Of a DNA stretch of 64,000 nucleotides, positions 3,382 through 42,627 are shown in pieces. Made by a program: the position numbers and the translations under genes. The DNA comes from Glaucostegus cemiculus (lineage: Eukaryota): positions 310,001-374,000 of the forward strand of contig CDPCPM010000053.1 in NCBI GenBank assembly GCA_976551045.1. Reading direction: 5' to 3'. Under the pieces are notes generated by a model, which worked only from the letters and a program-made list of their open reading frames with translations, made no database searches and was not told the origin of the DNA. Within the stretch, counting starts at the first letter, position 1; each line of letters opens with the position of its first letter.

Positions 3382-3384
3382 CAA

Positions 3385-6662: not shown

Positions 6663-6755
6663 GCATGGACGCATCGGAGGTATCGGTATATTCGCTGCAC
6701 TTTCATCAACTTTCTGTCAGTCGCACGGAAAGATCAATCTATTTTCTTCATCAGT

Positions 6756-9700
6756 ATGTTAATACGCGGTCTACTTTTATACATCTGTTCCTGGAGTACA
6801 TTGTACAGAGGTACAAGTTAAATCTATTTGTTTATTGTTACATCTTCATGAGACAAAATCGCACAAATGCTATCACGCAAAATTAATCTTCATTTCAAGA
6901 GAATGCGTGTTTTAGATGTAACATGTTCCCTCTTTCCTTGTTAAAAATGAGGAGTATTTTGTTGTTTTGAAATTCTAATGCTGACTGAAGTAAAGCAGAT
7001 ATTGTTTGTTTTCCCTAATGGTAATTGTTATTAATTTATGCATCACTGGACCTAACTCAAAATAGTTGTTGATAGTGCAAATTATCTTCGCTGAAAGGGA
7101 ATGATTTAACCCCAATTTTCATGGTTTATTCATAGCCACTTTGCAGAGTTCTTGCAATGAACCAAGCAGCGTTGTGCAACATAAGGCTCTCAGAGGGACA
7201 AACGTTACCTGGCGTTGTCCTTTCCCCTTCCAGCTGGATCCATCGAAAGTAAGGGTTTACTGGTGGAGAGGTGCAAATCGGACTCTCCTCAATAAAGACA
7301 GCAGAAAAGTTTTCATTGTAAAGAAGGGTTGTGCTTATCTTCATCTCCTGAATGTGACCATAACGGACGCTGGCCGATATCACTGTGCAATCAAGTATGA
7401 AGATCAAATGGCTGGAAAGGAAACTGAAGGGGAACTTTTTGTCTATGGTGAGCGTTGTAAACATGTGAAAGTGCCTAGGTATTGGATTGTGCTCCGAACA
7501 ATGGCCACAAAAATATATCGCAGGGATTTAATAACAGATATACAAAGTTAATAGCAGGCTAGCTTTGCTTCTGGATCGCATTGAACTCTCTCAAAAATAT
7601 ATTGCTAATATGAAGTTAAATAGTGTGGAACAGTATTGCCCAAATATTCTGTTTTATCTGTATTTTCTTATTCTACGTTTAGCCGCACCTGCTCCTTTGA
7701 AGATTGTTTCCATACAATCAGAATCCCCATCTCCATTTCCGAATCTCCAGTGTGCAACGACAGCATTTTACCCAAAGGAGTTTAATCTTACCTGGTATAA
7801 AAATGGGACCGAAATCCGGACTGGAATTGAGAATGAACTAAAGACCAACACAGATGGGTTATCCGAAGTTATCAGCTTCTTACAAGAAACGGAAGCAGTG
7901 AAGGGCAGCACCGTTTACACCTGTCGAGTACATCATATTTCTATTTCAATTCCAGCAACTGCCAACTATACGGTTCCTATTGCAGGTAACGTGACTCCAT
8001 GCTCGAAGTTCCATCATAAAGTGCAAAATAGATTATTTCATAAGATATATTTGGAGCTGTCATTTAATATTCTGTGAGACAAATGGACAATATCCACTAT
8101 TCAATTTCCCTCTAAGTGGCTGCAGCCGTCCACTTTATTATTGGTTTGAACCAAATCTGAGGTATACTCGGCACTCAAATTATCTCATGGCAAATACCCT
8201 GATCATACATTCACGGCAATTAATCTAAATAATGTAGTCTGAACATAGTTGATGCCAAAAACATAGTGCGAGGGGGATGGAAAGAATGGATGACACAGTG
8301 TGCATACTTCAAGTAAAGCAAAATTCTCGCTCAGTTCCAGTAAATGCAATCTGTACTGCTGTCAAAGCAGGTAAAGATATAATCGGATAAGTTGATATAT
8401 GTCCAACAAAATCAGACCCATTGAGACATGAAGTAGACGGAGATATTCCTCAATTTGCACGGCAGCACAAGAAATGGAGACTAAAGAGCGACTGTCATTC
8501 AGAAGTCTGCTGTGCCTTTCTTTCTTTCTCTGGCTATTCTGGCCGCTGGAATGCTCCGACTACCCCCCTTCCGCTGAGTGGGTCTAACCACCCTTCCGTT
8601 GTTTATTGGAAGCAAATGTGAAATGCATTGGACGATCACAAATTACCACATGTACCAGCCGTAAGCAAAATGTTCAAAAGATCAGAGTAGTTAGTTTGAC
8701 GATACAATGTGGACAGATTGATGAAAAAATCTACCCGGATAATTTAGCACAAGCTGAATTATCGTGTAACATGAGATCTTCGGAATCCTGGAAACAACAA
8801 GCATCTCAACGTTAAAGAAAGACACAAACTGCTGGACGAGTTCAACGGATTAGAAAACATCTACGGAGGGAAATGGGCAGTCGACGTGTGGGGTCGAGAC
8901 CAACTGGAGCAGTCTGCCTGACCTGGTGAGTTCTGCCAGAAGATTTCTCGGCACTATATTCCAGCATCTGCAGTCTCTTGTGGCAGCATCCCAAGTTCAT
9001 CTCAAGGAAGCACGCCGGCAATATCTCGCTACTGAGCCAAATACGGAATAAGATTCACGCTGTTCCAATTTACTGTGGAATGTGATGATCATACAGAACA
9101 GAAATTAAGAAAAGAATCATTTCCCTGACTGTAACTTCTTTTTTCAAATTTTGGGAATTTATATCCTGATTGATTGTAACCTATTTCAATCTTTATGTTT
9201 CGTAATACTGAAAATAAATGAACGCACTTGAATTATTCTCCCACGTGATGCAAGGTCATGTATAAGAAATTATGCTTCGACAAAATGGAAAGTTAGCGTT
9301 GGTTCTCAATTGTTTTTTTACCTCTTATTTCTCATTGTGCACTCAGCCAAATTGCTGTTTTTACTATATACTCCATTTATGATTCCCTGAAAATTACCTG
9401 AGGAGATAATGACACTGATATATACAGTCATTAGTTGCTATCTTATTTTCTTGTCAGAGGAGCATGTAGTATGTAGACAGGACGGTTGTTAATTTGAACC
9501 TTTTTATATCGGTTAACTATTGCGCAGGTTCCAATAAATCATCTCAATTTCATGCTGCCATAATTGCTGGACGTGTCGGAGGTGCGGTGTTAATTCTGCT
9601 GTTGACAGTCATGCTTTTGAAAAGAGTTCGACTCAGAGGTATGACGTTCTTCTTTACGAGCTTTCTAATGGCGTATTTTAACAAATTAGTTAATCAAGAA

Positions 9701-11076
9701 TTCGACAAAATCACTAGTGACGAAGGGAAAAAAAAAAAAACAAGATTCCTACTGGCAGCACCTCCGGTTGCGAAATTCCTCAGTTATGCTTCCAATGTAT
9801 ACTGAGAAAAATGTCTTGTGTTATCCCTGGTTCAATTAAAATACCAAAAGTTTGTTGGAAGCTCCCTTTCACGATCAGAAAGTCTGTTTGTGGATGCTGG
9901 TTTTAATATTATAATTTGTTCTCCTTCATCGTTAGTAACAAGGCACAGAGAACGCGCGCACTTTTGTTTTTAGTCAGGTATAATGTGGAATCTGTGGTGT
10001 CGCGGAACACAAGGCTTAAGTACACCATGGAATTTATCAAATTATATGTGATTTCCTTGGTCTGTTGATGAAATAAATAACACTCTTACGTGTATTTTGA
10101 ATATAATATCACTCTCTGTCAGGTACAAAAGCGCGTTCAGGAAATGAAACTCAAAATAACGAAAGGGTAAGCTGAAGTTATTTTCTCTATATTGAGTTAG
10201 AACATTCCTCAGGCGGCTTCGGAATTGAAACATACATTAAGTTGCTTAATCCGTTCCACATTTGGCTCTGGAACTTGACTATTTTTAGAATATCAAGGAT
10301 TCTGATGATTTGAAGATGCAGAGCATTGATGTGTATTTGGACGTTTTCACACATATTATGGCAGTGGAATTAATATTTTAAATCCGCTTTACTGTCAGCA
10401 TCATAAAGAAATATTGTATCCAATCAATCTTGGGTTTCACGAAAGTAACGTCGTCCTGTTTAGTCACATGGTTAATTATAATTCATAAATTAAAAATTGC
10501 GTTTGAATCGTTTCTCAGATTGGTGTTCGCCTTCGTGTGCGTTCCTTTTTTCGTAGTGTCCCTTACATTTAATTCTAATCTAAAATGAGTTCCACCATTA
10601 TTATTAATAACAACAAACATATGGCAATCCAAGGGTAACATAATGAACGACGATTACGTTCTGAACTTAGGAACTGAGTCTTTATCTAAAAAAAATCCCC
10701 AAAGTTTCATTATTTTTACACAGCTTAAAACGTTGATCCTGTAGGACATTTTGTTGCCATTCCTCGGTAAGCGTTTGCCACTTAAAGAAATATTGCATGT
10801 TCTAGACTCTAAATATAATTTCCAACAAGATAAATGTTTCACAATTTGCCTAGAATATGCAATTGCTAATTGATACTTGAAGGTTCAGAAAAATACTGTT
10901 GCACTCACTGAACATTTCATTTTCAGAACCAACAAGAGGATGACGTCGATATAGTCACGTACGTGGATTTGATCCGCAGGTTGGAGAATGATCCACCAAA
11001 ACGGCGCGAAAATAGTTCGGTGTACGCAATGGTAAAGCTCATTTCACACAAGAAAAATAAGGGCTCTGGCAATTAG
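6756..11076 (+). CDS. Gene A: non-rearranging IgSF V-C1 type I membrane receptor with TM Arg and two ITIM-type motifs (NCR3/SIRP-like), 324 aa
   Basis: Exons, all GT-AG and phase-compatible: 6756-6810 leader MLIRGLLLYICSWSTLYR; 7136-7447 V (WRC, YWWR, DAGRYHC); 7683-7985 C1 (C.TTAFYP...LTWYKNG...YTCRVHH); 9528-9638 TM (AAIIAGRVGGAVLILLLTVMLL); 10123-10166; 10927-11076 with VTYVDL and SVYAMV, then TAG. AATAAA at 11306. Confidence 0.9.
8377..8531 (+). repeat. Right arm of the 155-bp inverted repeat, in the C1-TM intron of gene A
   Basis: Inverted copy of 6173-6327. Confidence 0.93.
8815..8985. mobile_element. Short quasi-palindromic repeat derived from Penelope-like element termini (related pieces near 25700-25865, 35485-35585, 36515-36680)
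   Basis: CTGCTGGA...CATCT.TGGAGGGAAATGG.CAGTCGACGT followed by CTGCCTGACCTG.TGAG...TTCCAGCATCTGCAG. The same motifs end the Penelope fragment at 43400-43468 and 45184-45215. Confidence 0.5.
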
Positions 11077-12069
11077 GATTAAATTCCTCGTGATGTGGAT
11101 CAGGATAATTATCTGATGTCATTTTCATTCGGCGCTTTTCAACTGCAATTTAAATATCTTCATGTGTTTCTTTTAAATAGACCAAAGGTTACGCTGATGA
11201 CACCAAACTGGCGTAAGCTGCAGTGGATTTGAAAGGTTCCAAAAATATGCCGGAACTTCAAAAAAAAAGAAACAAAACTAATATACGGCGTGGTGAAAAC
11301 TGGCGAATAAATTCCACTGGAATATCGGAAAGGTTTTGGACTCTCTGTTATCCCGACATAACTTTGTATTGCCTTTTTATGTAACTCTAGTATTGCCACT
11401 TTGCCAGCCTTTTATTTTCTCGATGTCGTGGAAAGACACTGTTGGATTCTGCCCATCTATGCAAGGCACAGTCATTCTGAAGCGTACCCTCGAACAACAG
11501 ACTTAATTTAGTTTGCACCAGCATCACTGTTCTAATCTTCTTTCAGTGGTCGTTTGCTACCACTTGACGGCAATTATTCTGCCTCTTACGATCCCACAGA
11601 TAACGAATTGTAAATCTAAATGGGGCTCAAATCAGAAATAGATACTTCATACATTTTTACCCATCTCCCTTTTTCTCTACGCCATGTCCTTTACTGAACT
11701 CTTGATCAGCGGTAGTTTGTTTTCATCGTTTCTTATTTTGGGAACATCACATTCAGTTTCCATAATTCATGACTTTCCCTCATGTATTTCAACGTCCTAC
11801 AGTTTTACGTTTCCCCTCAGATTGTTCCATTATTTCAGCATGGCATTATTTATCCGAAATCACCGTGTGTACCATAGCCAACCTAAATTGATTGTGTCTT
11901 ATCCACTTTTCCCCAACCCCTTGTGGTCCACTGGACAGGAGAGCATATTTAAGCACATGATTTTCTCGGCTTTCCCCGTTTTTGTTTTCATTGGGACATT
12001 TGGTAAATACTCTGAGCCGAATATCATGTCAAGTAAGAGTGGGCATTTAAAGGAAATTACTGAAAGAAG

Positions 12070-12750: not shown

Positions 12751-13254
12751 CTGAACAAAATGTGTCATTACCTTTTTAAATAAAATACTCTAATCTGCTT
12801 CAATGATTGTTGATTCTGATATCTTACTGAGTGTATCTTTAGACGTCTATGGTGGAAATTAAGCATATTGAACTAGAACAAAGGATTATTTGTAACGCTT
12901 GGAAAATCAAAGTATTATGAAGGTCAAAATCCTTAACACACGATTGCACGTCATCCGTGCTAATAAACTGTCCCTGTTTGTGAAGACTGTTTCTGCAATA
13001 GAAGGTTAAGCAGATGAAGGCCAACGTCGTCAAACGGGCGCCATCCAAAATCTCTAACACCAACCCACCCAAAACAGGAGCCCATCCTTCTTTATACCCA
13101 TGTCATGCAACACGACCTCCGGCTGCTGTAACTACCGCTATAGAACGTCTGCAGCTTCTCTGAGATGAACCTGACACTAAATCGGGCAAGCAAAACACCA
13201 CTCTGGAATCTCTTTTGCAGCCACAGAATCTTTGACTATCACTGCCGCCTTGAT

Positions 13255-20268: not shown

Positions 20269-20271
20269 CAA

Positions 20272-21260
20272 CTGCCTATATGTCGGGAGTAGAACTACAA
20301 CCAGATGATGGGACTTGACGAAGTAGGACATGGGATTGCATAGGTAAGTGTTTTTGATGGTGGTATAGCAGTGATCGAGTGTGTGAACTCTTCTAGTTTC
20401 ACAGGTAACATGCTGTTGTTAGTTGGCCAGAGACTTCTTCAAGATGGCCTAGTTGAAGTCTCCGTGATGGTCAGGAAGGCATAAGGGGGCGCTGCCTCCT
20501 GACCAGAGATCACGGTGCTCAGCTCCTCCAGTATAAGATTGACACTTGCCAGGGGTACACCGCAACCATGATGACGTTAGTGAACTCCCTCCGCAGGTAG
20601 AACGGACGACACTTGAACATCAGATGTTCCAGACCGGGGAGCAAAACTGAATCAGAACTGTCACGTCTGTGCACCACGAAGAGTTAATCATGAAGCCAGC
20701 ACCGCCGGCTCTGCCTTTACCTCTTGCTGCCGTCCGGTCCATGCGGTGGATGGCGAAGCGCTCAGGCTGGAGCTCTGATTTCGGAGTGCTGTGGGTGAGT
20801 CCTCTCTCTAAGAAGAAAAGTATCTAACAGACCCTGATGTCCCTATGGTTTTGTTGTCTTGCTCTGAGGTCTTCCATTTTATTTACAATAGACTATACAG
20901 TAACCAGGAGGATGATAGCCGGGGGGATTGGGGGAGGAGGGACTGAGACATGGCCCTGCCTGCGTCTCAATTTTACCTGCCATCATGCCTGCAGCCACGT
21001 TTTCTGAAACAATGGAGACGTTCCCTGAGGTGGTGGTCTAGAGTCCCGAGCCTGCCGGTTGTTACGATCGCTAGTTTCTTTAAAGGACTTGAAATAATGT
21101 TGTAAGCGGGAGCGTTGGGATCTCTCGGGATCTGCTTTAAAACTGTTTGCTCTCTCTGGTGCCATTTCCTTGAGGCATTGCAAACAAGTAATCATGCCAG
21201 AGTGACATCTTGAAAGTGTTTGTGCTTACTGCTTAATAAAGGAGACTTCAGTGCCTTCGC
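20272..21260 (-). mobile_element. Rex1/Babar-type LINE 5' portion, copy B
   Basis: Paralog of 3385-4370. Confidence 0.75.
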
Positions 21261-21406
21261 CGAAATAACAACAGAAAGATTTACAAATGCTCAATACCCT
21301 TTTAACAAGTGAGATTTAAAACTACCTCTTTTCAATTTTTTCTCATCTTTACATTTGTTTCGTTCCAGGGCGGAAACGCAGTCAACAGAAGAAAACAGAA
21401 TTCAGA

Positions 21407-22026
21407 TCAATAATGGAGGAACCTAACCACAAAGTAGCACTGAAGTATAAGTGCGTAGGAAGCGCTGATGACTGTTGCGTTTGGGGACCCGTGAACTCGC
21501 GAGGCACCTTCTCCAGCTTGTGGCTTTGTTTCCTCTAGCGATAGCTGTTCATTGTCAGTTGATATTTCCGTTGGCCACTGATGAGATGAGCCCATGAGAT
21601 CAGGTTTAGTTCAGTTCTGCACACTTCTTAATGATTAGTTTCGAACAAGCGATCGTTAAACGTTATGTTTACATTTGCCTCGACGAATGTGAATTAAAAT
21701 GCAATTCTCAAGCTTATTTAGCTAAGGATTCAAGCTCATGGAATGGGCGCAGGAATATAATGTGAGACTTGCGGATTCATTTTCTCCAACAGTGCTAATG
21801 TTTAAAGGATTAAATAAAAGTTAGGTTCAAACCTGACCCTAGTAACCTATACCCTAGCACACTTCTCTTGTGTCGGCTTCCCTCTTGTGTCTGCTACTTC
21901 AATCTCCAAGAAAGTACATCTATTTTGGTTGCAGGCAGCTCAGCCAATGCTCCTTGGAACTTTCTGCAGCTTCTTTGCAAGCTGGCAGTTTTTTACTTCG
22001 GTTCCGACTGTCACTGCAGGAACTAA
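21407..22026 (-). pseudogene. Possible remnant of an antisense gene with a GPI-signal-like terminal exon, copy B (exons 22026-21853 and 21577-21407)
   Basis: 174-nt phase 0/0 exon LVPAVTVGTEVKNCQLAKKLQKVPRSIG*AACNQNRCTFLEIEVADTRGKPTQEKCAR joins in frame to WPTEIST...SASYALILQCYFVVRFLHY*. One internal TGA. Confidence 0.3.
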
Positions 22027-22841
22027 CTGTGAAATTGTATGAACCTCAGAATGTAATGTGGGGGATGGGCATTGCAGTAAGAATAGAGGCGATTTAATTC
22101 GGACACTCATGGCTAAACTAAAACGTTAATAATGAAATCGGCAATGGATTGACGTGGACAGAAAGAGAGCGTAGGTAACAAAGGGATGTAGAGAATGTAG
22201 ATTAACGCAGTAATGGCAGTGAAATTATCATCTGAAACCTAATAAACACAAGTAGAGAAGGACTCAAAATAACAACTTAGAAGCTAACAGTCAGTTCAGA
22301 AGTGACGGCATTTGGATTATTGTATCTTCGCCGTCTGATCGAATAACGCTTCGTGGATATTAAATAGTGTTTCCAAATCTTGTTATGTCCATAGCGTGAA
22401 ACCATCTTGACAAGTTTAATCTGTTAGTTTCTCTTCAGAACGCTTATTGCATGTTATCGAACCAGTAGCGAGTGCATCACACTTTTCTCTTTCCGCGAAC
22501 CTCAGCAGCAACACGTTGCAAATGGCCCCTGGTTAGACAACAAACAAATGGAAACATTCTAAGAATGACGTCAAAACAACGCTTGCATTTTTCCACTAGC
22601 AGTTTCCAGAATCTGCGATTTCAGTAGTTGTTACAATTAACAACCTAAACGTTGCAGTTATTCAAAGGTATTGTACATGGACGCTTCATCCACAGAAAAC
22701 AATCCTTTCACTCAGACTGTAATAATATAAACTAAGTCCAACGAATGGATTGGCTAAGTAAGCTACCAACCGAACTATGAGGTGCCATAAGCAATCAAGC
22801 AGGAGTAAACATTGTAGACCACAGTTTTTGTTAGTAACAAT

Positions 22842-23062
22842 AGAAGAAAGAAGAATCAAGATAGAAAGAAAGAAGGAAGGAACGAAAGAAAGAGAGAAAG
22901 AGAAAGAAAGTGAAAATGAGAGAAAGAAAGATAGAATGAAAAAGAAAGAAAGGAAAGAAAGAAAGAGAGATAGAGAATGAAGGAAGGGACAAAGAAGGAA
23001 AAGGAGAAAGAAGGAAAGAGAAAAATAGACTGAGAATGAAATAAAGAGAGAAAGAAAGAAAG
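22842..23062. repeat. GA-rich microsatellite
   Basis: Degenerate (GAAA)n/(GA)n tract. Confidence 0.9.
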
Positions 23063-23201
23063 ACACAGCAGACTTCTGAATGAAAGTAGCTCTTTAGTCT
23101 CCATTTGTTGTGCTGCCGTGCAAATTGAGGAATATCGCCGTCTACTTCATGTTTCAATGGGTCTGATTTTGTTCGACATATATCAAATTATCCGATTATA
23201 T
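23047..23201 (-). repeat. Left arm of the inverted repeat, copy B (partner 25258-25412)
   Basis: Paralog of 6173-6327. Confidence 0.92.
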
Positions 23202-23629
23202 GAAAATAGCGTGAAAAACTTGGTTAAAAATCTTATGCGATTTATTTGTGCTTCCAAGTTATTGTTTGCGTCTTTTGTTTAGTTAAGATACATCCCTTAA
23301 ATGTATCAGCTCTGAAATTAACAACTGGAGTGAGTTTCGTCTGGTAAACAGAGGACCTATTTCAGGGATTTAAGCAATTAATTCATGTCGCTATCGTCCT
23401 TTCTTGCCAGCGAAGAATGATCGACTTGTGGCTCGATTATTCACACCATAATTCTTCCCCTGACGTCAGATTTTATTTTACAAGATGTTCACTTCTGTAT
23501 TGGCAGCATTTCAATGTCAGGTGACCTCACACGTGTGCATGGACGCATCGGAGGTATCGGTATATTCGCTGCACTTTCATCAACTTTCTGTCAGTCGCAC
23601 GGAAAGATCAATCTATTTTCTTCATCAGT

Positions 23630-26600
23630 ATGTTAATTCGCGGTCTACTTTTATACATCTGTTCCTGGAGTACATTGTACAGAGGTACAAGTTAAATCTG
23701 TTTGTTTATTGTTAACTCTTCATGAGACAAAATCGCACAAATGCTGTCACGCAAACTTAATCTTCATTTCAAGAGAATGTGTGTTTTAGATGTAACATGT
23801 TCCCTCTGTCCTTGTTAAAATGAGGAGAATTTTAAGTTGTTTTGAAATTCTAATGCTGACTGAAGTAAAGCAGATATTGTTTGTTTTCCCTAATGGTAAT
23901 TGTTATTAATTTATGCATCACTGGACCTAACTCAAAATAGTTTTTATAGTGCAGATTATCTTCGCTAAAAGGGAATGATTTAACCCCAATTTTCATGGTT
24001 TATTCATAGCCACTTTGCAGAGTTCTGGCAATGAACCAAGCAGCGTTGTGCAACATAAGGCTCTCAAAGGGACAAACGTTACCTGGCGTTGTCCTTTCCC
24101 CTTCCAGCTGGATCCATCGAAAGTAAGGGTTTACTGGTGGAGAGGTGCAAATCGGACTCTCCTCAATAAAGACAGCAGAAAAGTTTTCATTGTAAAGAAG
24201 GGTTGTGCTTATCTTCATCTCCTGAATGTGACCATTACGGACGCTGGCCGATATCACTGTGCAATCAAGTATGAAGATCAAATGGCTGGAAAGGAAACTG
24301 AAGGGGAACTTTTTGTCTATGGTGAGCGTTGTAAACATGTGAAAGTGCCTAGGTATTGGAATGTGCTCCGAACAATGGCCACAAAAATATATCGCAGGAA
24401 TTTAATAACAGATATACAAAGTTAATAGCAGGCTAGCTTTGCTTCTGGATCACATTGAACTCTCTCAAAAATATATTGCTAATATGAAGTTAAATAGTGT
24501 GGAACAGTATTGCCCAAATATTGTTTTATCTGTATTTTCTTATTCTACGTTTAGCCGCACCTGCTCCTTTGAAGATTGTTTCCATACAATCAGAATCCCC
24601 ATCTCCATTTCCGAATCTCCAGTGTGCAACGACAGCATTTTACCCAAAGGAGTTTAATCTTACCTGGTATAAAAATGGGACCGAAATCCGGACTGGAATT
24701 GAGAATGAACTAAAGACCAACACAGATGGGTTATCCGAAGTTATCAGCTTCTTACAAGAAACGGAAGCAGTGAAGGGCAGCACCGTTTACACCTGTCGGG
24801 TACATCATATTTCTATTTCAATTCCAGCAACTGCCAACTATACGGTTCCAATTACAGGTAACGTGACTCCATGCTCGAAGTTCCATCATAAAGTGCAAAA
24901 TAGATTATTTCATAAGATATATTAGGAGCTGTCATTTAATATTCTGTGAGACGAATGGACAATATCCACTATTCAATTTCCATCTAAGTGGCTGCAGACG
25001 TCCACTTTATTATTGGTTTGAACCAAACCTGAGATATACTCGGCACTCAGATTATCTCATGGCAAATACCCTAGGCAGCATGATCATACATGCGCGGCAA
25101 TTAATCTAAATAATGTAGTCTGAACATGGCTGATGCCAAAAACATAGTGCGAGGGGAATGGAAAGAATGGATGACACAGTGTGCATACTTCAAGTAAAGC
25201 AAAATTCTCGCTCAGTTCCAGTAAATTCAACCTGTACTGCTGTCAAAGCAGGTAAAGATATAATCGGATAAATTGATATATGTCCAACAAAATGAGACCC
25301 ATTGAAACATGAATTAGACGGCGATATTCCTCAATTTGCACGGCAGCACAAGAAATGGAGACTAAAGAGCGACTGTCATTCAGAAGTCAGCAGTGCCTTT
25401 CTTTCTTTCTCTGGCTATTCTGGCCGCAGGAACGCTCCGACTACCCTCCTCCCGCTTAGTGGGTCTAACCACCCGTTCCGTTGTTTATTTGAAGCAAATG
25501 TGAAATGCATTGGACGATCATTAATTACCACATGTACCAGCCGTAAGCAAAATGTTCAAAAGATCAGAGTAGTTAGTTTGACGATACATTGTGGACAGAT
25601 TGATGAAAAAATCTACCCGGATAAATTAGCACAAGCTGAATTATCGTGTAACATGTAATCTCGGGAATCCTGGAAACAACAAGCATCTCAACGTTAAAGA
25701 AAGGCACAAACTGCTGGACGAGTTCAACGGATTAGAAAACATCTACGGAGGGAAATGGGCAGTCGTCGTGTGGGGTCGAGACCAACTGGAGCAGTCTGCC
25801 TGACCTGTGAGTTCTTCCAGAAGATTTCTCGGCACTATATTCCAGCATCTGCAGTCTCTTGTGGCAGCATCCCAAGTTCATCTCAAGGAAGCACGCCGGC
25901 AATATCTCGCTACTGAGCCAAATACGGAATAAGATTCACGCTGTTCCAATTTACTGTGGGATTTAATGATCATACAAAACAGAAATTAAGAAATGAATAA
26001 TCTCCCTGACTGTAACTTCTTTTTTCAAATTTTGGGAATTTATATCCTGATTGATTGTAACCTATTTCAATCTTTATGTTTCGTAATACTGAAAATAAAT
26101 GAACGCACTTGAATTATTCTCCCACGTGATGCAAGGTCATGTATAACAAATTATGCTTCGACAAAATGGAAAGTTAGCGTTGGTTCTCAATTGGTTCTTT
26201 ACCTCTTATTTCTCATTGTGCAATTAGCCAATTCTTGTCAGAGGAGCATGTAGTATGTAGACAGGACGGTTGTTAATTTGAACCTTTTTATATCGGTTAA
26301 CTATTGCGCAGGTTCCAATGAATCATCTCAATTTTATGCTGCCATAATTGCTGGAAGTGTCGGAGGTGCGGTGTTAATTCTGCTGTTGACAGTCATGCTT
26401 TTGAAAAGAGTTCGACTCAGAGGTATGACGTTCTTCTTTACGAGCTTTCTAATGGCGTATTTTAACAAATTAGTTAATCAAGAATTCGACAAAATCACTA
26501 GTGACGAAGGGAAAAAATATTTCCAAGATCCCTACTGGCAGCACCTCCGGTACGAAATTCCTCAGTTATGTTTCCAATGTATACTGAGAAAAATGTCTTG

Positions 26601-27855
26601 TGTTCTCCCTGGTTCAATTAAAATACCAAAACTTTGTTGGACGCTCCCTTTCACGATCAGAAAATCTGTTTGTGGATGTTGGTTTTAATATTATAATTTG
26701 TTCACCTTCATCGTTAGTAAAAGGCACAGAGAACGCGCGCACTTTTGTTTTAAGTCAGGTATAATGTGGAATCTGTGGTGTCGCGGAACACAAGGCTTAA
26801 GTACACCATGGAATTTATCAAATTATATGTGATTTCCTTGGTCTGATGATGAAATAAATAACACTCTTACGTGTATTTTGAATATAATATTACTCTCTGT
26901 CAGGTACAAAAGCGCGTTCAGGAAATGAAACTGAAAATAACGAAAGGGTAAGCTGAAGTTATTTTCTCTATATTGAGTTAGAACATTCCTCAGGCGGCTT
27001 CGGAATTGAAACATACATTAAGTTGCTTAATCCGTTCCACATTTGGCTCTGGAACTTGACTGTTTTTAGAATATCAAGTATTCTGAAGATTTGAAGATGC
27101 AGAGCATTGATGTGTATTTGGACGTTTTCACACATATTATGGCAGTGGAATTATTATTTTAAATCCGTGTTACTGTCAGCATCATAAAAATATATTGTAT
27201 CCAATCAACCTTGGGTTTCACGGAAGTAACGTCGTCCTGTTTAGTCACATGGTTAATTATAATTCATAAAATAAAAATTGCGTTTGAATCGTTTCTCAGA
27301 TTGGTGTTCGCCTCCGTGTGCGTTCCTTTTTTCGGAGTGCCCCTTACATTTAATTCTAATCTAAAATGAGTTCCACCATTATTATTAATGACAACAAACA
27401 TATGGCAATCCAAGGGTAACATAATGAACGACGAATGCATTGTCAACTTAGGAACTGAGTCTTTATCTAAAAAATCCCCAAAGTTTCATTATTTTTGCAC
27501 AGCTTAAAAAGTTGAGCCTGTAGGACTTTCTGTTGCGGTTCCTCGGCAAGCGTTTGCCACTTAAAGAAATATTGCATGTTCTAGACTCTAAATAAAATTT
27601 GCAACAAGATAAATGTTTCACAATTTGCCTAGAATATACAATTGCTAACTGATACTTGAAGGTTCAGGAAAATACTGTTGCACTCACTGAACATTTCATT
27701 TTCAGAACCAACAAGAGGATGACGGTGGTATAGTCACGTACGTGGATTTTATCCGCTGTAAGGAGAATGATCCACCAAAACGGCGCGAAAATAGTTCGGT
27801 GTACGCAATGGTAAAGCTCATTTCACACAAGAAAAATAAGGACTCTGGCAATTAG
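23630..27855 (+). CDS. Gene B: non-rearranging IgSF V-C1 type I membrane receptor with uncharged TM and tyrosine motifs VTYVDF and SVYAMV, 324 aa
   Basis: Exons 23630-23684, 24010-24321 (V), 24555-24857 (C1), 26312-26422 (TM AAIIAGSVGGAVLILLLTVMLL), 26904-26947, 27706-27855. Same sizes and phases as gene A, open frame, intact GT-AG sites. Confidence 0.9.
25258..25412 (+). repeat. Right arm of the inverted repeat, copy B
   Basis: Paralog of 8377-8531. Confidence 0.92.
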
Positions 27856-28849
27856 GATTAAATTCCTCGTGATGTGGATCAGGATAATTATCTGATGTAA
27901 TTTTCATTCGGCGCTTTTCAACTGCAATTTAAATATCTTCATGTGTTTCTTTTAAATAGACCAAAGGTTACGCTGATGATACCAAACTGGCGTACGCTGC
28001 ACTGGATTTGAAACGTTCCAAAAATATGCCGGAACTTCAAAACAATGAATCCAAACTAATATACGGCGTGGTGAAAACTGGCGAATAAATTGCACTGGAA
28101 TATCGGAAAGGTTTTGGACTCTCTGTTATCCCAACATAACTTTGTATTGTCTTTTTATGTAACTCTAGTATTGCCACTTTGCCAGCCTTCTATTTTCTCG
28201 ATGTCGTGGAAAGACACTGTTGGATTCTGTCCATCTATGCAAGGCACAGTCATTCTGAAGCGTATCTTCGAACAACAGACTTAAATTAGTTTGCACCAGC
28301 ATCACTGTTCTAATCTTCTTTCAGTGGTCTATAGCTACCACATGACGGCAATTATTCTGCCACTTACGATCCTCCCGTTAACGAATTGTAAATCTAAATG
28401 GGGCTCAAATCAGAAATAGATACTTAATACATTTTTACCCATCTCCCTTTTTCTCTACGCCATGTCCTTTACTGAACTCTTGATCAGCGGTAGTTTGTTT
28501 TCATTGTTTCTCATTTTGGGAACATCACATTCAGTTTCCATAATTCATGACTTTCCCTCGCATCATGTATTTCAACGTGCTACAGTTTTACTTTTCCCCT
28601 CAGATTGTTCCATTATTTCAGCATGGCATTATTTATCCGAAATCACCGTGTATACCATAGCCAACCTAAATTGATTGCGTCTGATCTTCTTTTCCCCAAC
28701 CCCTTGTGGTCCACTGGACAGGAGAGCATATTTAAGCACATGATTTTCTCGGCTTTCCCCGTTTCTGTTTTCATTGGGACATTTGGTAAATACTCTGAGC
28801 CGAATATCACGTCAAGTAAGAGTGGGCATTTAAAGGAAATTACTGAAAG

Positions 28850-29550
28850 AAGCAATGTTGATGTCCAGTAAGAACTCGATGTCCAATTCCACCGCTGACC
28901 GGAAGAGGGAATGCAGGTCGATAGAGTTGTGAAAAAGACATAGACATGCTTGCCTTCATAGGTTGGGGCACAGATTATAGAATTTGGAAAGTTATGTTTC
29001 AACTTTACAAGACAGTGGTTTGGCCAAACTTTATTGCCAGCATTTCTGTTCACCAGATAATAGGAACTAAGCAATTGCACTTGAGAGAGTGCAGAGGAGA
29101 CTCTACAGCACACTCCCTGGTTTGGAAAAACATGCTTCTAGGGACTGGATAGGTGGTTTTGATTTCTCTTCAACGAAGAAGACTGAGTTGTGACCTGCTA
29201 TTATCCAAAATTATGAGAGGAATGGAAGGCATTAACAGTCAAAATACTTTTTTATTGACATAATGCAAGATGGAAAGGTTTAAGATAAGAGATTCGAGTG
29301 TGAAAGGGGTCTGAGGGGGTCAGTGTTTGACGCAGAGAGCTGTTGATATCAGAAAGTTGCTGCCAGAAGAAGTGGATGAATCAGATAAAGTCACCATGAT
29401 TAAGAGTCATTTGGACATATTTTTAAATAGGCCAGCCGGAGAATAATTCCATTCTAATGGAGGGAACTTGAATTAGTGTAGATGGGCAAAAAGCTCGGCA
29501 TGGGCATAATAGTCCAGGTCCAGTTTTGCGCCGTACAACTTTATGTTGTG
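28850..29550 (+). mobile_element. CR1 LINE 3' fragment, copy B
   Basis: Paralog of 12070-12750. Confidence 0.75.
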
Positions 29551-31249
29551 GATCGCTGAACAAAATGTGTCATTACTTTTTTTAATAAAATACTCTAATC
29601 TACTTCAATGATTGTTGATTCTGATATTTTACTGAGTGTATCCTTAGACGTCTATTCTGGAAATTAAGCAAATTGAACTAGAACAAAGGATTATTTGTAA
29701 CGCTTGGAAAATCAAAGTATTATGAAGGTCAAAATACTTAACACACGATTGCACGTCATTCGTGCTAATAAACTGTTCCTGTTTGTGAAGACTGTTTCTG
29801 CAATAGAAGGTTAAGCAGATGAAAGCCAACGTCGTCAAACGGGCGCCTTCCAAATTCTCTAACACGAACACTCTTGCTGGTACCTTACTATGATGAAGCA
29901 GATTATTCGCGGGCAATGTCTAATTTCACATCAGATCAAAACACCTGTTTTTAGTTTTGTTTTACTTTGGATAACCTTTTCTCTAATTATATTTTGAATA
30001 ATTTCAGACCCTCTGTGTTATAATCTCCATACACACGACTTGGTAAAAGTTCTGTTTTTCTGCTTCAAACCCGCAAAATCTGTGCCTGTGTGGTGGAAAT
30101 AGTGTAGATATGGAAAAGTTATTGCATGTTTATTTAATTCATTGATTTAATAAATAAAATATTTACATTTCATAAAGAATTCTACTGAAATCATATGAGA
30201 CATTTCGGATGAAATTATGACTCTGGAAATGTCGCAGATTTTTGTCTGGTGTTGGTTCTGTGGTATAAAGAGAAGGTGCTCGTACAACAGATATTCTGGA
30301 ACATTGGGGTTACTTTCGTTAATCCCAAACTCTTAATTTTTTCTAACACGTTACGCAATGACATAATAGATATTCAAAAGAAACTTGATTGGTGCGGGAA
30401 ATAGAAAAAAAAATGCTGACCCCCGCTCCGTCCACTAACCTCGTTGATTTCCAAACTCAAATATTCTGGAAGTCAACCCCAGCTCTAGTTTCACATTCAG
30501 CCAGGGAACCTCAGTTCACATTCCAGACCATTGTGTGTGGCAGAGGCAGGAATATCAGGATTTACAAAATAGCAGGTGCCAGTCTGAAAACTTCACTGGT
30601 ATGTAGGATCAATATTGATAGGCACAACGGGCACATCGAAATGTTGTGCCGAAAGGCTTGCTTCTCCACTGTACGGCTCTGACTCTTCAAGTCTGAAAAC
30701 ACGGGTGTATTTTTTTCATTAACCCAGGGTTTTGCAAATCTGATAGCCCAAGGATCATAACTTGGGGTTTATCTATTTACAACTAACAGGGAAAGGAAAA
30801 TAATAACCCTATTTTCCTGAAGATGCAAACTTCGATGAAACCAATGATGTTTAAAGATGCGAAATCCGTGAAAAATACATTACTCGTTGCCAAAAGCAGA
30901 TCAAGAGCAAGGTATGGACTTCGATATTGGTTGCTCGGTGACCAAAATTGTAACGTCCGTCTTGTTTTCCAAACGTGAAACATTGATAATTGTTAGGATT
31001 CAGAAAGATTTGTCTTCTCTTCTACATGCATCACCGAGAATATTCGCACGATTAATATAATAAAACTGAATGTTCTACTCAGGTGATACACTAAGATGAA
31101 TGAAGGGGAACATTCATACGTTCAAGCTGTTGTGAAATTGCATCCAGAGTACGTTGTGCAGTTTTGGCCTACTGATCAAGGAAATGATAATATGAGTCAG
31201 AACCGGTGTAATAAATGGTCCCTCGTTTGAGTCCGAAGAATGTAGGATG

Positions 31250-35603: not shown

Positions 35604-38600
35604 ATGCCTTTTTCCGACGTGATTCTGTTTCTGTCGTTGCTGAAGATCACAAATGCAGGTATTCTTTATTCTTCTGTTCTTACCAACGCTCACACTCTAT
35701 CACAAGTACCTCACCGGTGCATGCGAAACTATTAGAAGTGCGGTTAATTGTGTCTCCCTGAGTCTTATTTGGAATTAATTGCCTGATTTTCATTGTGCCT
35801 ACAGTTGACAGTGAACTACGAGTCTCCCAAGAACCGAAAAGCAAAAATGTGCTCGTGGGTTCAAATATCACTTTTTATTGCATTATCCCCATCTCTCAAA
35901 ACCACTGGACTCTGGACATTTATTGGTGGAAACTTGGTGAAAGTAAATTTCTGCAAACAGCCTCTGACAGTAGGATGATATTTATTCGTTTTGAGCAAGG
36001 TGGGGCTGCCTTTCATCTTCTGAATATCAACGTGAAGGACTCTGGTGTCTACTACTGCGAGGTGAGAAACCTGGCAAGCAGGACAGTAAAAGGAACAGGC
36101 TCCACAATCAAAGTATTTGGTAGGTATGACAGTGGAAGCAAATGTGCTACAATATGGATATTTATCGTGTTTGCATTGCCTACTCTGTCATCCAGGCTTG
36201 TAAAAATAATCCAGATGACCGTTTGATTTGCTGTTAGTCTATTTTTAAGAGGCTGATTCTGCTGAAAATTCACGAAAATGTTGAATTGAAATCAGTTGCT
36301 ATTTCTTTCCTAGTTATGATAGCTGTGGATCTAACTTCCACTTCTAATTCACCTTGATCATCTCTAAATTCTGAATAAACCTACACTGGATTTCGATGTG
36401 CTCATTGATATATTTGCTCGTGTGTGTATTGCACCATTAATTCGGAATGTTCTTTCAAGCAAGTTGTACAATATTGACTGTTTAAAACTAAGATTTAAAA
36501 TGAGAGAAAATGGGAAAATGTGAATAAACTCGAAGTTCAGACGGCAACATCTGTGGAGAAAGGAACAGAGTTACAGATTCAGCCCATTCTACAAACAAAG
36601 GGTAGGGATTTGAAACGCCGAATAGTTTTCACTCTGCAACTGCTGGCTGTGCCGTCGACTATTTCCAGCACACTTTTGAAATGCTAAATACAGGATCACG
36701 TTGCCCAGATGATCATATGGAACTTTACGTTGTTTGATTTTCTGAAGAACTACCGGAAGTAATATTGAAATATATAGTTGTATCCATGTATCTTTTTGCA
36801 GACCACACGCAAATTTTCTCCCTTACTTTTGCAGTTCCTCCGAGTCATCCCAGAATCTCCAAAATATCTGATCTAAACTCCACTACGCTGCATCTCGGAT
36901 GTGAAGCTGATGAATTTAGAAGTTTTATATATAAACATTATGCCGCGAAGATTAAGTGGAACCATTATGTGGCTTGATTTTCTGAACTGACAAAACAATG
37001 TTGATTTCGCGAACAGTTGCCATAATCATCAATTACGAGATAGTTAACAAAAATCGTGATATATAGTTGTATAAGTGTATCACTTTTCAGATCACAAATA
37101 GATGTTTGTCTTACTTCTGCAGTTCCGCCAGGTCACCTCAGGATCTCCAGAATGTCTGATCTAAACTCCACTACCCTGAATCTCGCATGTGAAGCTGATG
37201 AATTTTATCCGGGAACCCTCAACCTCACATGGTACAAAAACGATATTGAGATTGTAACCGGCATAGACACAGTTGTAAAACTTAATATGAATGGATTATA
37301 TGAAGTATCGAGTCAATTAAGTGAGACGCAGCCCCTCCAGGACGGGTCTCTTTACACTTGCCAAGTGGCGCACGTCACTCTCTCTTCTCCAGTTGCTGCC
37401 ACATATCGTGTTCCAGATCATAGCACAGGTAATGGATTGCCAAATGTAGGCTTTTCTGAAATAAGAACGTTATATGGTTTCAGTACTAAGGCACGTGCTC
37501 TTTTTTAGTTCTCGAAAGCTGTACGAATTAAAACAGTATTTAAGATCGATTTTAAAAATGTTCTCCATAATTAGCAAGCAGTGTATTTTAACTTCTGCAA
37601 TAAACTCAAAATGCTTGAAAGAACCAAAGTTTTAATTCCTCCAAACCCGATGATTGGCTTACATTAGCATTCTTATGTTATCTTTCTAACTGAAAGATTA
37701 CAGGTACATTTCTTCTCATTTTAATAGGCTGGAAAACGTGTTGTTTCCTTCAAGGGAAAGATGGGCAAGCATAAGACGAGATTCGAAATATTTCTTCCAG
37801 ATATGCAGTTGTTACATTCCCAGGTTCTACTCTGAATGTGTGACTGTTTGTGTATTGTTGACTGTTTGGAACAAAACAACTGCACTGAAGACGGTTATCC
37901 GATGAGGAAAATAACAATATTTCAAAATTAAAGAGTACTAACACAACATCATATCTAATATGAGTTACACAAAGAGAAAAAAAAATGTTTAGACCCGCGG
38001 GGCAAGTGTGTGTAATTTGAAATCATAAGAACATTTTTGCCAAAGTTCTTTCCAGTTTCAATCAGATAGCCAAGGGATATGTTACGAGTTTCCCGCCAAT
38101 AAGCAAAAACAAAAATGGTATTGGGGAGTTCGTGGGGTAGGGAGAGGTTCGTAGTATTATTACCACGGACAGTAAATTGCAAAATAATCTGAAAAACCGT
38201 TCCAAACAAAACTTAACCAGGGCTTACCTTATGCCATTGTACTTACTTCTTTCTATATTACGGCTCAGAATATAATCTTAATTCATACAATATTAGTATT
38301 GTATCAATTGGTATTGGTACATTTCACACACAGAAGAATTCATATCCGAATTATTTAAACTCCTACAATTTTTGGGGCGCTGTGTTATTTTCAGTGTGTA
38401 TACTTCCCCTTATTTCATATTTTCTCTTCAAAAGCCAACAATCGCCAATGTTGTGATGGGGGATTTTAATTTCGCAAACTTCGACTGGAATCTCCAGACA
38501 GTGAGGGGTTTAGATGGGATTGAGTTTGTTCGGTGTGTTCAGGAAGGGTTCGTGATACAACATGTAGATATACCTACAAGAGGAGAGGACGTGATTGATT

Positions 38601-41600
38601 TGATTTCGGGAAATGAACCTGTTCAGGTGTCAGATCTCTCAGTGGGTGAACTTTTTGGTGATAGTGATCATGATTCTATCTCCATTTCGTTAGCACTGGA
38701 GACAGATAGGAACAGACTGACAAGAAAGTTGTTTACCTGGAGTAAAAGGAATTACGAGGCTCTCAGGCAGGAAACTGGAAGATTAAATTGGGAATAGATG
38801 TTCTCTGGGAAAAGTATGGAAGATATGTGGCAAATATTCAGGAGGTATTTGTGTGGAGTGCTGCATAGACATATTCCCATGAGACAGGGGAGTCACGGGA
38901 TGATGCAGGAACCGTGGTGTTCGAAGGCGATAATAAATCTAGTTAAAAGGAAAAGAAAAGCGTAGAAAAGGTACAGAGAGCTAGGTAATGTTAGAGATCT
39001 GGAAGAGTACAGGGCCAAAAGGAAGGAACTTAAGAAAGAGATTAGGTGAGGTAGACGGGGACATGCGAAGGCCTTGGCGGGCAGGATTAAGGAAAACCCC
39101 AGGGCGTTCTACAAGTATGTGAAGAATAGGAGGATGGGATGGGAAAGAATAGGACCTATCAAATGCAGCAGTGGGAAAATATGATGAATCTGGAAGAAAT
39201 ATCGGAGGTACTTAATGAATGCTTTCCGTCACTATTCACTGCGGAAAAGATCCGGGGGAATTGTCGTGGGGAGGTGCAGCGGCTGAAAAGCTCAAGAGGA
39301 ATACTGTATTAATGGTCGGACTTTTGGAAGTGTGGAGTATCAAAGGGATCTTAGGGTCCGAGTCCGTAGGACGCTCAAAGCGGCTGCACATGTTGTCTCT
39401 GTGGTGAAGAAGGCATATGGTGTATTGTCTTCATCAATCGGTGAATTGAATTTAGGAACTCAGAGGTATTGTTGCAGATATACAGGTCCCTCGTCAGACA
39501 CCACTTGGAGTATTGTTCGCAATTCTGGTCGCCTTACTACAGGTAGGATGTGGAAGCCATAGTGAGGGTGCAGTGTAAATCTACAAGGATGCTGCCTGGA
39601 ATGCAGTGCATGCCTTATGAAAGCAGGTTGAGCGAATTCAGCTTTTTCTCCTTGGAGAGACGCAGGATTAGGGGGGACCTGACAGAGGTCCCCCAATCTT
39701 CCTTTTTACAGAAGGCAATTCTGCCTTTTCCCCACAGCTGAAGTGGTGGCCACAATAGGACATAGGTTATGGTGCTGGGGAGTAGATATAGAGTAGATGT
39801 CAGGGAAAAGATTTTTTACTCAGAGAATGGTAAGTGTTTGGAATGGGCTGCTGACATCGGTGCTTGGAGGTGGATACGATATGGTCTTTTACGAGACTGC
39901 TGGATAGGTACATGGAGCTGATTAAAATAGGGGGCTATGGGTAAGCCTAGTGCTTTCTAGGGCAGGGACAAGCTCGGCACAGCTTTGTGGGCCGAAGGGC
40001 CTAAGTTGTGCTGTACATTTCCTCTGTTACTGTGTTTCTATGGCCAATTGTTCTGTGCATTCTGGTCACGATTTGAATTAATTTATTTGACAGCAGTTAT
40101 AATACATTTCATTTGAAGACCGAATTGGTATTGTACAGTTTAATTCACACAAAAGCGTATTGGCAAATTAAATACCTTAATTTGTATCTTTGTGCAACAA
40201 TTTAAATACACAGGTGCTAATTTGTGGCGCAAGTTCAGTACTGTTCTCATTGCTCGTGGCGTCGTGGGTGCTTTAGTGATTATTCTCCTGATCGTTATTA
40301 TCGTGGGAACGACTTTTCTCGAAGGTATGATCTACACGGATGTTCTGCGCCAATTACTTTGCAGTCAAGTATTTGAAGACATGAGTTAAGTTAGACTGGA
40401 ACAACATCATTATTATTCGTGTAGAATTAGAACCAAATTTATTAGTACTGAGATATGACGTGCAATTTTTGGTTTTGAGGGAGCAGTGCAGTGCAAGACA
40501 TAAAAGTCTTTAGATTGCAAAAGATGTGCAAGAAAAGGAATAATGAGGTAGTGTTCATGGGTTCTTCGAACATTCAGCCATCTGATGTCGGAGGGGAAGA
40601 CGCCGTTCATAAATCATCTACTGCACGTCTTCAGGCTCCTGTACCTCCTCTCAGATGGTAGCAACAAGAATAGCCCTCCTGAATGGTGTGGGTCCTTAAT
40701 GATAGCTTCGCCTTCATGGGGAACCGCCTGTTGAAGATGTCCTCGATGGTAGGGTTTGTTGTGCTTCTAATGGAGTAGTTAGCTGTACTTTCCTCCGCAA
40801 CCTGTTGCGACCCTGCGCATCGGAAGCGCCAAAACAATCTGTGATGCAACCAGTCAGAATAGTCACCACTGTACATCTATCGAAATTTATAATTGTCTTT
40901 GGTGACATACCAAATATCCTCAAACTCCGAACGGTATAAATCCGCCGATGTGTCTTCTTCTTGATTACATCAATATGTTGGGCTCAGGATAGATCTTCTG
41001 ACAGACATATTGACGCCCAGGAACTTGAAGCTGTTTGCTCTTTCCGGCGTTAACTCCTCAGTGCAGAGTGGTTTGACTTCCCCTGTCTTAGCCCTTGTTG
41101 AAGCAATCATCGCTTCCTAATACGCAGGAATGGGTAACAGATTGATTGAACATGATATTTTTGACAAGGGTACTGCCTACTTATCCACCTGATTCTTTAA
41201 AGTAGATATTTTTTCTCAAAATATGCCTTGCTACAGATCAAGATCAAGCTGCCTTTTATTTTAGATCAAATTGCCGGGAGTCTGACTATTTTTATGTTGA
41301 ATTTAAGAAGGCTATTTGCTCAGATACAGTTTGGGAATACCACAAAATATTCGTAAGGTGTACTTGGTAATAACTGAAATAGAGGACGTTTCCTCAGATT
41401 CTATCGTAAAACAGAATGGTACCACATTCTTTTTCTTGCTAATTCGCGGTTTATATATTTTCCATCAGCTACCAAGAGGCAATCGGTAAAGGCCAAACGC
41501 CTAGAAAATTGGGTGAGTTCAATCTGTTTTCGCTCCTTTCATTTTAATATTACGGAAAGGGTTTCAGATTTGCACCAACATTAAATAGATTTAAGTGCTC

Positions 41601-42627
41601 ACATTGCATTGGCTAGTCCCTTTCCTGAAAACACTGTAACAATGTAATTATATGATGGTGGGAATATAGCGCAGTGTACGATCGTTGCAGCAGAGAATGC
41701 CCATTTTATGCTAGACCAAATAAACGGTTTCGTTACATTTCACACGGCTGGTTTTACTTTTGAGGAATTCGTAAGTTCACGCAAGTCCCAACATTGATCT
41801 TTGCGTTGGAAATATTCCCAAGTGAATTCAAATCACTGTCGTTTTAAAATCTCGCCTGCAACTACGTTTGTATTGCGTCCATATTATCAAATATATTTTC
41901 ATTCCAAAAAAACGGCGTGACATCTACCAGTGTCGTTAGTAATCATAATATAGTTCAAAGCAACTCAGACTTGAATTATTCAATAAAACATTCTGCTTAC
42001 ACGATTTAAATCACATATTTTAAGTATGGATATCTAATTTACAAATGTTCATTGAACGTTGCACAAGAATATCTTAAATATTTTCTCGAAATTAGCATGT
42101 GCCGCACACCTCCCTTAGACAGCAATATACACAGCAGCAATGCCATATATTGATTTTCACGATATTTACTATCGGAGTGGATACTTTCTCGCGAGATTCC
42201 ATTCACAGTAAGTGGAGGTGATATCGTAAGAATATATGAAACGAATACAATAATGTAAACATAAATTGTTGGAATGAAAAATGACTTACGGAACCTTGAA
42301 ACACCATAAAATAAATAGATAGGTGCTTAGCATGTGTATTTCTGCAAAGGGCACAAGGAAGATACAAGGCGACAGATATCTGATATCATTTGAGCCAGGA
42401 CTGAGCCAAATATGCTGCAGAATAGCACTTTGAACAGACAATAACTCATTCCACACATGAGCGAAAAATAAAATCAATCTGACTGAGTTAATTTTGATGT
42501 GGAAATGTAAAAAAAAAAATCTTTATCTATTCGGACCCAAAAGGTCGCCACTAATCGTAAACCGGCAAACATTGCTTTGAATTTACAGATTTCTGAAGAA
42601 TACGGGAACACCATGACCCAGGTCTAA
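35604..42627 (+). CDS. Gene C: non-rearranging IgSF VJ-C1 receptor with TM Arg and short tail (NCR3/NKp30-like, putatively activating), 289 aa
   Basis: Exons: 35604-35658 leader MPFSDVILFLSLLKITNA; 35805-36119 V with LRVSQEP, YWWK, DSGVYYC and J-like GTGSTIKV; 37123-37428 C1 (C.ADEFYP..LNLTWYKN...YTCQVAH); 40214-40324 TM STVLIARGVVGALVIILLIVIIVG; 41469-41512; probable last exon 42589-42627 ISEEYGNTMTQV*. Leader, TM and first cytoplasmic exons have the same lengths (55/111/44 nt) as in A and B. The last exon is the least certain. Confidence 0.85.
36835..36977 (+). other. Partial duplicate of the gene C C1 exon with its own acceptor (pseudo-exon or alternative terminal exon)
   Basis: ccttacttttgcag|VPPSHPRISKISDLNSTTLHLGCEADEF copies the first 28 codons of the C1 exon, then runs through 19 unrelated codons to TGA at 36977. 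Confidence 0.75.
38445..40040 (+). mobile_element. Internally deleted CR1 LINE in the C1-TM intron of gene C
   Basis: Endonuclease VMGDFNF...GDSDH, then a jump to the RT C-terminus (VKKAYG, LEYC..FWSP) and 3' UTR. Confidence 0.88.
40430..41085 (-). mobile_element. Rex1/Babar-type LINE 3' fragment in an intron of gene C
   Basis: FGMSPKTIINFDRCTVVTILTGCIT. Homologous to 13690-14310. Confidence 0.8.

What the first reader, a model, noticed from the sequence alone, without database searches (positions are those of the whole stretch)
35604..42627. Gene C looks like NKp30 with an added C1 domain
Seen: N-terminus LRVSQEP, in-exon GTGSTIKV, TM STVLIARGVVGALV, and a ~30-aa tail with no ITIM but EEYGN. 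Known (from memory): human NKp30 has LWVSQPP, GNGTRLVV and TM GTVLLLRAG, but no C1; YxN is a Grb2-SH2 motif. Inference: the activating member of the cluster and a possible structural link between NKp30 and V-C1 antigen-receptor chains.
Basis: partly seen in the sequence, partly recalled or inferred. Interest (0 to 1): 0.7.

Follow-up and report, generated by a model that had tools for sequence, protein, structure and literature searches.

The report
Activating twin in ray VJ-C1 family
This intact gene of a probable ray belongs to a family of over 50 antibody-shaped surface receptors, not to the NKp30 genes found elsewhere in the same genome, and it is likely the 'on-switch' partner of an 'off-switch' twin lying just beyond the window.

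Summary
The gene and all four motifs are real: six exons, 289 aa, leader-VJ-C1-TM-short tail. The NKp30 reading fails. V-C1 is the plan of a family with 57 V matches on two contigs. A separate NKp30-like cluster without C1 lies on other contigs. Trees reject gene C grouping with it (AU p 0.0003-0.009), though a deep sister link of the whole family is not excluded (p 0.33-0.35).

The 'activating' inference holds for another reason. Across the family a basic residue at the start of the membrane helix goes with the lack of ITIM exons (2 of 10 versus 19 of 24; 6:0 independent pairs), and it arose about five times. Gene C is a mosaic. Its V is shared with the ITIM-bearing neighbour gene D, its C1 exon was likely copied recently from D, and its TM/tail comes from another lineage. 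Sharks have counterparts of both. Likely mechanism: Arg240 couples to FcRgamma or CD3zeta (untested). The YxN motif is unconserved.

This scan noted the family before on other DNA.

The parts
35604..35658 (+). exon 1, leader peptide
   Evidence: open frame and GT donor; gene D has a same-length leader exon
35805..36119 (+). exon 2, single-exon joined VJ domain; compact (Cys-Cys 59 aa), GxG bulge without the F/W of FGxG, no RSS nearby
   Evidence: Pfam V-set; model pLDDT 90; spacing and RSS scan
36770..36917 (+). relic of gene C's older intron end and first 28 codons of a C1 exon; keeps a strong acceptor at 36835 and runs into a stop
   Evidence: 80% to gene D, 82% to C's working C1; acceptor score
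36915..37449 (+). 535-bp patch holding the working C1 exon, 94% identical to gene D; D is the only other match in the genome
37123..37428 (+). exon 3, C1-set domain; no spare Cys for a disulfide-linked dimer
   Evidence: Pfam C1-set; Cys list
38500..40050 (.). multi-copy interspersed repeat in intron 3
   Evidence: many blastn matches in fetched DNA
40214..40324 (+). exon 4, transmembrane helix; belongs to the A/B/E TM lineage, not to D's
   Evidence: TM DNA tree 100/99, AU p 0.013 against C+D
40255..40257 (+). Arg240 codon, at the site where most ITIM-bearing paralogues have Gly
41469..41512 (+). exon 5, 44-nt phase 1-to-0 cytoplasmic exon, same size and phase as in gene D
42589..42627 (+). 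predicted last coding exon with the Y-G-N-T motif and the stop; first AATAAA after the stop at 43312
7147..11216 (+). paralogue gene A, V exon to stop: V-C1-TM, one ITIM exon, last exon stops early
24012..28090 (+). paralogue gene B, V exon to last exon (approximate ends): V-C1-TM with two ITIM exons; tandem copy of A

Best explanation
Gene C is an intact member of a large elasmobranch family of non-rearranging VJ-C1 receptors and is likely the activating partner of its ITIM-bearing neighbour gene D. Shown: the exon structure, family membership, separation from the NCR3-like genes, the Arg/ITIM split across the family, and gene C's mosaic make-up. Inferred: the V domain binds a cell-surface or pathogen ligand related to D's; Arg240 at the outer end of the helix pairs with the Asp of an FcRgamma or CD3zeta dimer, whose ITAMs would recruit Syk/ZAP70; D would counter this through SHP-1/2. 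Also inferred: gene conversion keeps the two ectodomain scaffolds alike while the binding loops diverge, as in mammalian paired receptors. The Y-G-N-T motif may add Grb2 binding, but this is the weakest step.
For: Family: 57 V matches, all on contigs C53 and C238; the best 56 of 75 C1 matches lie on the same two contigs. Shark and ray RefSeq proteins have the same plan. Tree: family one group at 99/98; C+D+two shark proteins at 100/99. Gene D is intact, with ITIM-consensus motifs in two exons. Basic TM residue: 2 of 10 genes have an ITIM exon, against 19 of 24 without it (Fisher p 0.002); Arg at the exact site 0 of 7 against 21 of 27; independent pairs 6:0 with 2 ties, p 0.031. Arg TMs are not one clade (5 changes, AU p 4e-5). 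C versus D: C1 dS 0.07, V dS 0.37; 12 of 26 V differences fall in two loops of 24 residues (p 0.003, loops chosen after seeing the alignment). Heterodontus P0002 joins a C/D-type V to an Arg TM of gene C's clade (95/91); the TM of Heptranchias P0001 best matches D and its tail has two Tyr motifs. Two zeta/FcRgamma-type TM exons with the Asp exist in this genome. N-terminal TM Arg coupling to FcRgamma was tested in Xenopus XFLs (PMC2413239, passages).
Against: Exceptions exist: gene A (Arg one residue later) and C53:561253 (Lys) keep ITIM exons, and 5 of 24 genes without a basic residue have none found. 16 of 50 loci were dropped (15 had no TM exon called, 1 had too little DNA). Gene C lacks the Asn of the NxxR motif described for FcRgamma-coupled TMs (PMC2413239, passages). 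The closest relative for the TM and tail, gene E, is a frameshifted pseudogene, so some Arg/no-ITIM genes may simply be decaying. The TM acceptor scores weakly (10.2) and the relic acceptor strongly (20.0) on my crude score. One short stretch between C and D reads N and could not be scanned.
Confidence: 0.68

Rival explanations
1. Gene C is an NCR3/NKp30 gene that gained a C1 exon.
For: Joined VJ exon with a GxG bulge and a TM Arg, both also features of NKp30 (PMC6514059, PMC11599192, passages).
Against: NKp30 is not among the top 60 PDB matches of gene C's V (lowest listed 21 bits), whereas a V on contig C736 has NKp30 as its best single-domain match (43 bits, E 4e-10). That V retrieves 14 matches, on C736 and C300 only, and no C1 was found in the 21 loci fetched there. 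AU tests reject C with the NCR3-like group (p 0.0003), and C+D+shark orthologues with it (p 0.001; mixture model 0.009). The flanks are septin-7-like, an LRR gene, a GST and anamorsin, and no MHC class I match lies on C53 or C238.
Confidence: 0.04
2. The whole family is the sister group of NCR3 and keeps an ancestral VJ-C1 plan from which NKp30 lost C1, so it works like an NK-receptor cluster.
For: Family+NCR3-like as one clade is not rejected (p 0.35, 0.33).
Against: Family+antigen-receptor V is not rejected either (p 0.18), so the node is open. The family V is shorter (Cys-Cys median 59 against 67). The language-model neighbours of P0001 are SIRP-alpha clusters (0.97).
Confidence: 0.13
3. 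Gene C is a non-signalling, decoy or decaying copy: it lost its ITIMs, the Arg is incidental, and the relic acceptor may yield a secreted V-only product.
For: Strong relic acceptor followed by a stop; gene E, its closest TM/tail relative, is a pseudogene; birth-and-death debris throughout the cluster.
Against: Open frame over six exons; V dN/dS 0.38 against D; Arg recurs at one site in about five lineages and in two shark proteins.
Confidence: 0.15

Closest known systems
SIRP paired receptors (SIRPalpha/SIRPbeta)
   Same: Joined VJ plus C1 ectodomain; ITIM member paired with a short-tailed member carrying a basic TM residue (PMC12975943, passages). RefSeq labels several family members 'PTPNS1-like'; Atlas neighbours are SIRP-alpha clusters.
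   Different: One C1, not two; a shorter V; Arg at the outer end of the helix rather than DAP12 coupling; over 50 genes; no SIRP among the top 60 PDB matches of gene C's V. Orthology is not shown.
NKp30/NCR3
   Same: Single-exon VJ with GxG; TM Arg able to use CD3zeta/FcRgamma (PMC6514059, passages).
   Different: NKp30 has one IgV only. NCR3-like genes form a separate group on other contigs, and gene C is rejected from it.
PRARP and UrIg (non-rearranging VJ-C1 genes)
   Same: VJ-C1 plan without rearrangement (PMC10751288, PMC12227049, passages). UrIg2 tops the PDB list for the C1 exon, helped by its several C1 domains.
   Different: UrIg is secreted, has three C1 domains and is MHC-linked. 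A lone V-C1-TM gene on C143, on the same contig as a zeta-type adaptor, falls outside the family and may be the PRARP counterpart (the identification rests on recall).
FcRgamma-coupled activating receptors (LILRA2, NKp46, GPVI, Xenopus XFL TM1)
   Same: Arg at the N-terminal end of the TM, short tail, intermingled with ITIM twins (PMC2413239, passages).
   Different: Those carry NxxR and non-VJ Ig domains. Here the Arg arose repeatedly from the family's own Gly-type TM exons.

Membership tests
NCR3/NKp30 | single-exon VJ-type V domain | tested here: met
NCR3/NKp30 | one extracellular Ig domain followed directly by TM | tested here: not met
   C1 exon present and family-wide
NCR3/NKp30 | V groups with NCR3 | tested here: not met
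   AU p 0.0003, 0.001, 0.009. The NCR3-like set is this genome's own, labelled from one PDB match and the tree; no named NCR3 sequence was in the tree
NCR3/NKp30 | basic TM residue | tested here: met
   Arg240
NCR3/NKp30 | MHC linkage | tested here: inconclusive
   0 of 38 MHC_I matches on C53 or C238; flanks not MHC-like; contigs are not chromosomes
NCR3/NKp30 | binds B7-H6 | not testable with these tools
   no ligand data
SIRP | VJ plus C1 ectodomain | tested here: met
SIRP | V-C1-C1 (two C1 domains) | tested here: not met
   one working C1; one skate model has two near-identical C1 repeats (P0011)
SIRP | paired ITIM and adaptor-coupled forms | tested here: met
   by sequence only
SIRP | V orthology or synteny with tetrapod SIRP | tested here: inconclusive
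   no SIRP row available for the tree; SEP-domain marker genes lie on C7 and C37 (marker chosen from recall)
SIRP | CD47 binding | not testable with these tools
   none
rearranging antigen receptors | split V and J with RSS; FGxG pairing motif | tested here: not met
   no RSS-like site near gene C; F/W-GxG in 3 of 48 family V domains
elasmobranch VJ-C1 paired family (unnamed) | V and C1 nest in the family; shared exon phases | tested here: met

The most novel reading that the evidence does not exclude
Sharks and rays have an undescribed KIR/LILR-like paired receptor complex built on an antigen-receptor VJ-C1 scaffold. Activating forms were made from inhibitory ones about five times by placing Arg at one TM site, or by exon shuffling. 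The C/D pair predates the shark-ray split and is kept matched by gene conversion, so it would be a working on/off pair for one class of ligand and a prime candidate for the missing variable NK or myeloid receptors of cartilaginous fish.
Probability: 0.35. Interest if true: 0.65.

Novelty: new variant of a known kind. Interest (0 to 1): 0.42.

Why it matters
It removes a false 'missing link', and it supplies a testable on/off receptor pair in the oldest jawed lineage. Repeated Gly-to-Arg switches and ectodomain conversion mirror how mammalian paired receptors evolve (recalled for KIR and Siglec), which suggests the same pathogen-decoy pressure. Databases already hold the family under inconsistent labels: Ig lambda-like, tapasin-related and PTPNS1-like.

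Tried and rejected
RNA: no RNA holder was listed.

Complex prediction of gene C's TM with an FcRgamma-type TM dimer gave no answer (score 0.02).

Fold searches do not separate IgV families: the NKp30 complex ranked 40 in Foldseek among VNAR, Ig, TCR and NCAM, and it is not in the VIA top 50.

Profile searches of PDB and of protein representatives were swamped by multi-Ig proteins. The search for named NCR3 proteins found none, so no labelled NCR3 or SIRP row entered the trees. The Atlas did not hold gene C's V.

The SEP marker gave no synteny answer.

An alternative ITIM exon was considered: 18 AG-led continuations with an ITIM consensus occur in the 26 kb before gene D, but none scores on the family ITIM-exon profile.

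YxN as a conserved signal was rejected: gene E's homologous exon stops right after the Tyr, and the shark Arg-type tails have no Tyr.

Not held, so recalled only: Kinlein 2021, Flajnik 2012, Ohta 2019, Dornburg and Yoder 2022. These papers and their supplements could already describe this family.

Full report
Observation. Six GT-AG exons give a 289-aa leader-V-C1-TM-tail protein; Pfam confirms V-set and C1-set, and the V folds confidently as an IgV. The last exon is predicted, not observed. It is the best of five candidate acceptors in the first 1.5 kb after exon 5 on a crude score, and its acceptor region is conserved in paralogue gene E about 58 kb upstream.

Context. The window lies on contig C53. 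Gene C's V finds 57 matches, all on C53 and C238, and the best 56 of 75 C1 matches lie on the same contigs (lower bounds). V-C1 is therefore the family plan. RefSeq holds such proteins from Heptranchias, Heterodontus, Mobula, Amblyraja and Leucoraja under mixed labels. Sampled flanks of C53 carry septin-7-like, LRR, GST and anamorsin exons; MHC class I matches are on five other contigs.

NKp30 test. I sampled 20 V-set loci from elsewhere in the genome. One, on C736, has NKp30 as its best single-domain PDB match (43 bits; SIRP-beta 36). It defines a 14-match cluster on C736 and C300 in whose 21 fetched loci no C1 was found. Gene C's V does not list NKp30 in its top 60. In a 77-row tree of 107 columns the family is one group (99/98), the NCR3-like genes another (91/81), and gene C sits with gene D and two shark proteins (100/99). 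AU tests reject C, or the C/D clade, joining the NCR3-like genes (p 0.0003 and 0.001; 0.009 with the mixture model). They do not reject the whole family as sister to NCR3 (0.35, 0.33) or to antigen-receptor V domains (0.18). Limits: short alignments, no named NCR3 or SIRP rows, and an NCR3-like label that rests on one PDB match and the tree. The family V is also more compact: Cys-Cys median 59, against 67 for NCR3-like and about 72 for Ig.

Activating or not. Gene D starts about 4 kb beyond the window end (C53:378001). It is intact, 75% identical in V and 89% in C1, has Gly where C has Arg240, and carries ITIM-consensus motifs in two exons. I modelled 50 C1 loci in the fetched DNA, which is most but not all of the family. 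34 had a TM exon and enough downstream sequence; for five of them the TM call came or 57 rather than 81. ITIM exons follow 2 of 10 genes with a basic residue near the TM start and 19 of 24 without (p 0.002). On the V tree 8 independent pairs give 6:0 with 2 ties (p 0.031). The six Arg TM exons that entered the TM tree need five changes, and their monophyly is rejected; in the cleanest twin pair a Gly codon became an Arg codon in an otherwise near-identical exon. Against: two basic-residue genes keep ITIMs, five genes have neither feature, and gene E is a pseudogene.

Mosaic. (i) The V exon is 84% identical to D, with dS 0.37. (ii) A 535-bp patch with the C1 exon is 94% identical (intron part 96%, dS 0.07). 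It begins inside a relic of C's older C1 exon that is only about 80% like D, and D is the only other match in the genome. So the C1 was likely replaced by a copy from D, not added to an NKp30. (iii) The TM and tail belong to the A/B/E lineage (100/99; C+D rejected, p 0.013). Heterodontus P0002 has the same combination and Heptranchias P0001 resembles D, yet V and C1 trees join C with D and the two sharks with each other. This fits an old pair under concerted evolution. The two shark proteins come from different species and the TM alignment is only 37 columns, so this step is tentative. C-D differences concentrate in the CDR1- and CDR3-equivalent loops (post hoc).

Mechanism. Inferred: ligand binding by the V; Arg240 pairing with the Asp of FcRgamma or CD3zeta, both types having TM exons in this genome; ITAM signalling opposed by D's ITIMs. 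The precedent is FcRgamma coupling of N-terminal-Arg TMs (PMC2413239, passages; PMC4536121, passages) and of NKp30 (PMC6514059, passages). Y-G-N-T fits the Grb2/GADS consensus given for CD28H (PMC11599192, passages), and YxN is uncommon among candidate continuations (3 of 180), but it is not conserved.

Known and new. Non-rearranging VJ-C1 genes are in print: PRARP, UrIg and others (PMC10751288, passages; PMC12227049, first of eight parts and passages). Joined VJ is shared by CD79, NITR, SIRP, CD8, NKp30 and PRARP. SIRPs are V-C1-C1 paired receptors (PMC12975943, passages). Seven library searches listed no paper on this family, but four key papers were not held. Earlier notes of this scan describe the family on other DNA.

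Verdict. Real gene, wrong family, probably the right sign. New variant of a known kind; interest 0.42.

Noticed in passing
window 1-13064 and 16887-29869: Genes A and B are a 16.9-kb tandem duplicate at about 96%. A has Arg one residue after the family site (Ser in B) and an early stop in its last exon, so it may be midway between inhibitory and activating forms.
   Followed up: partly
window 6173-6327 / 8377-8531 and 23047-23201 / 25258-25412: A 155-bp inverted repeat (94-96%) brackets the V and C1 exons of genes A and B; it could promote inversion or exchange of ectodomains.
   Followed up: no
window 36835: The relic C1 acceptor is the strongest of those scored; its use would give a V plus short tail without TM, a possible secreted decoy.
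   Followed up: partly
G000:C736:196358-488237 and C300:1340007-1361585 (L114, L121-L140): NCR3-like cluster of at least 14 V exons; the L114 TM carries Lys, and one locus (L139) has a weak ITIM-like hit.
   Followed up: partly
L111 (G000:C143:7677000-7686999): Lone V-C1-TM gene with TM Arg residues, outside the family, 1.4 Mb from a zeta-type adaptor gene; possible PRARP counterpart.
   Followed up: partly
G000:C238:2800194 and 2804432: One gene has two candidate TM exons, one with Arg and one without, a possible splice switch.
   Followed up: no
P0074, P0093, P0121: Turtle proteins with 4-6 tandem compact VJ domains (Cys-Cys about 61), one with ITIMs, score high on the family profile; their relation is unresolved.
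   Followed up: partly
L101-L104, L108, L109, L107: Many germline-joined Ig light-chain-like V exons on C50, C157 and C436, and a joined heavy-chain-like V on C165.
   Followed up: no
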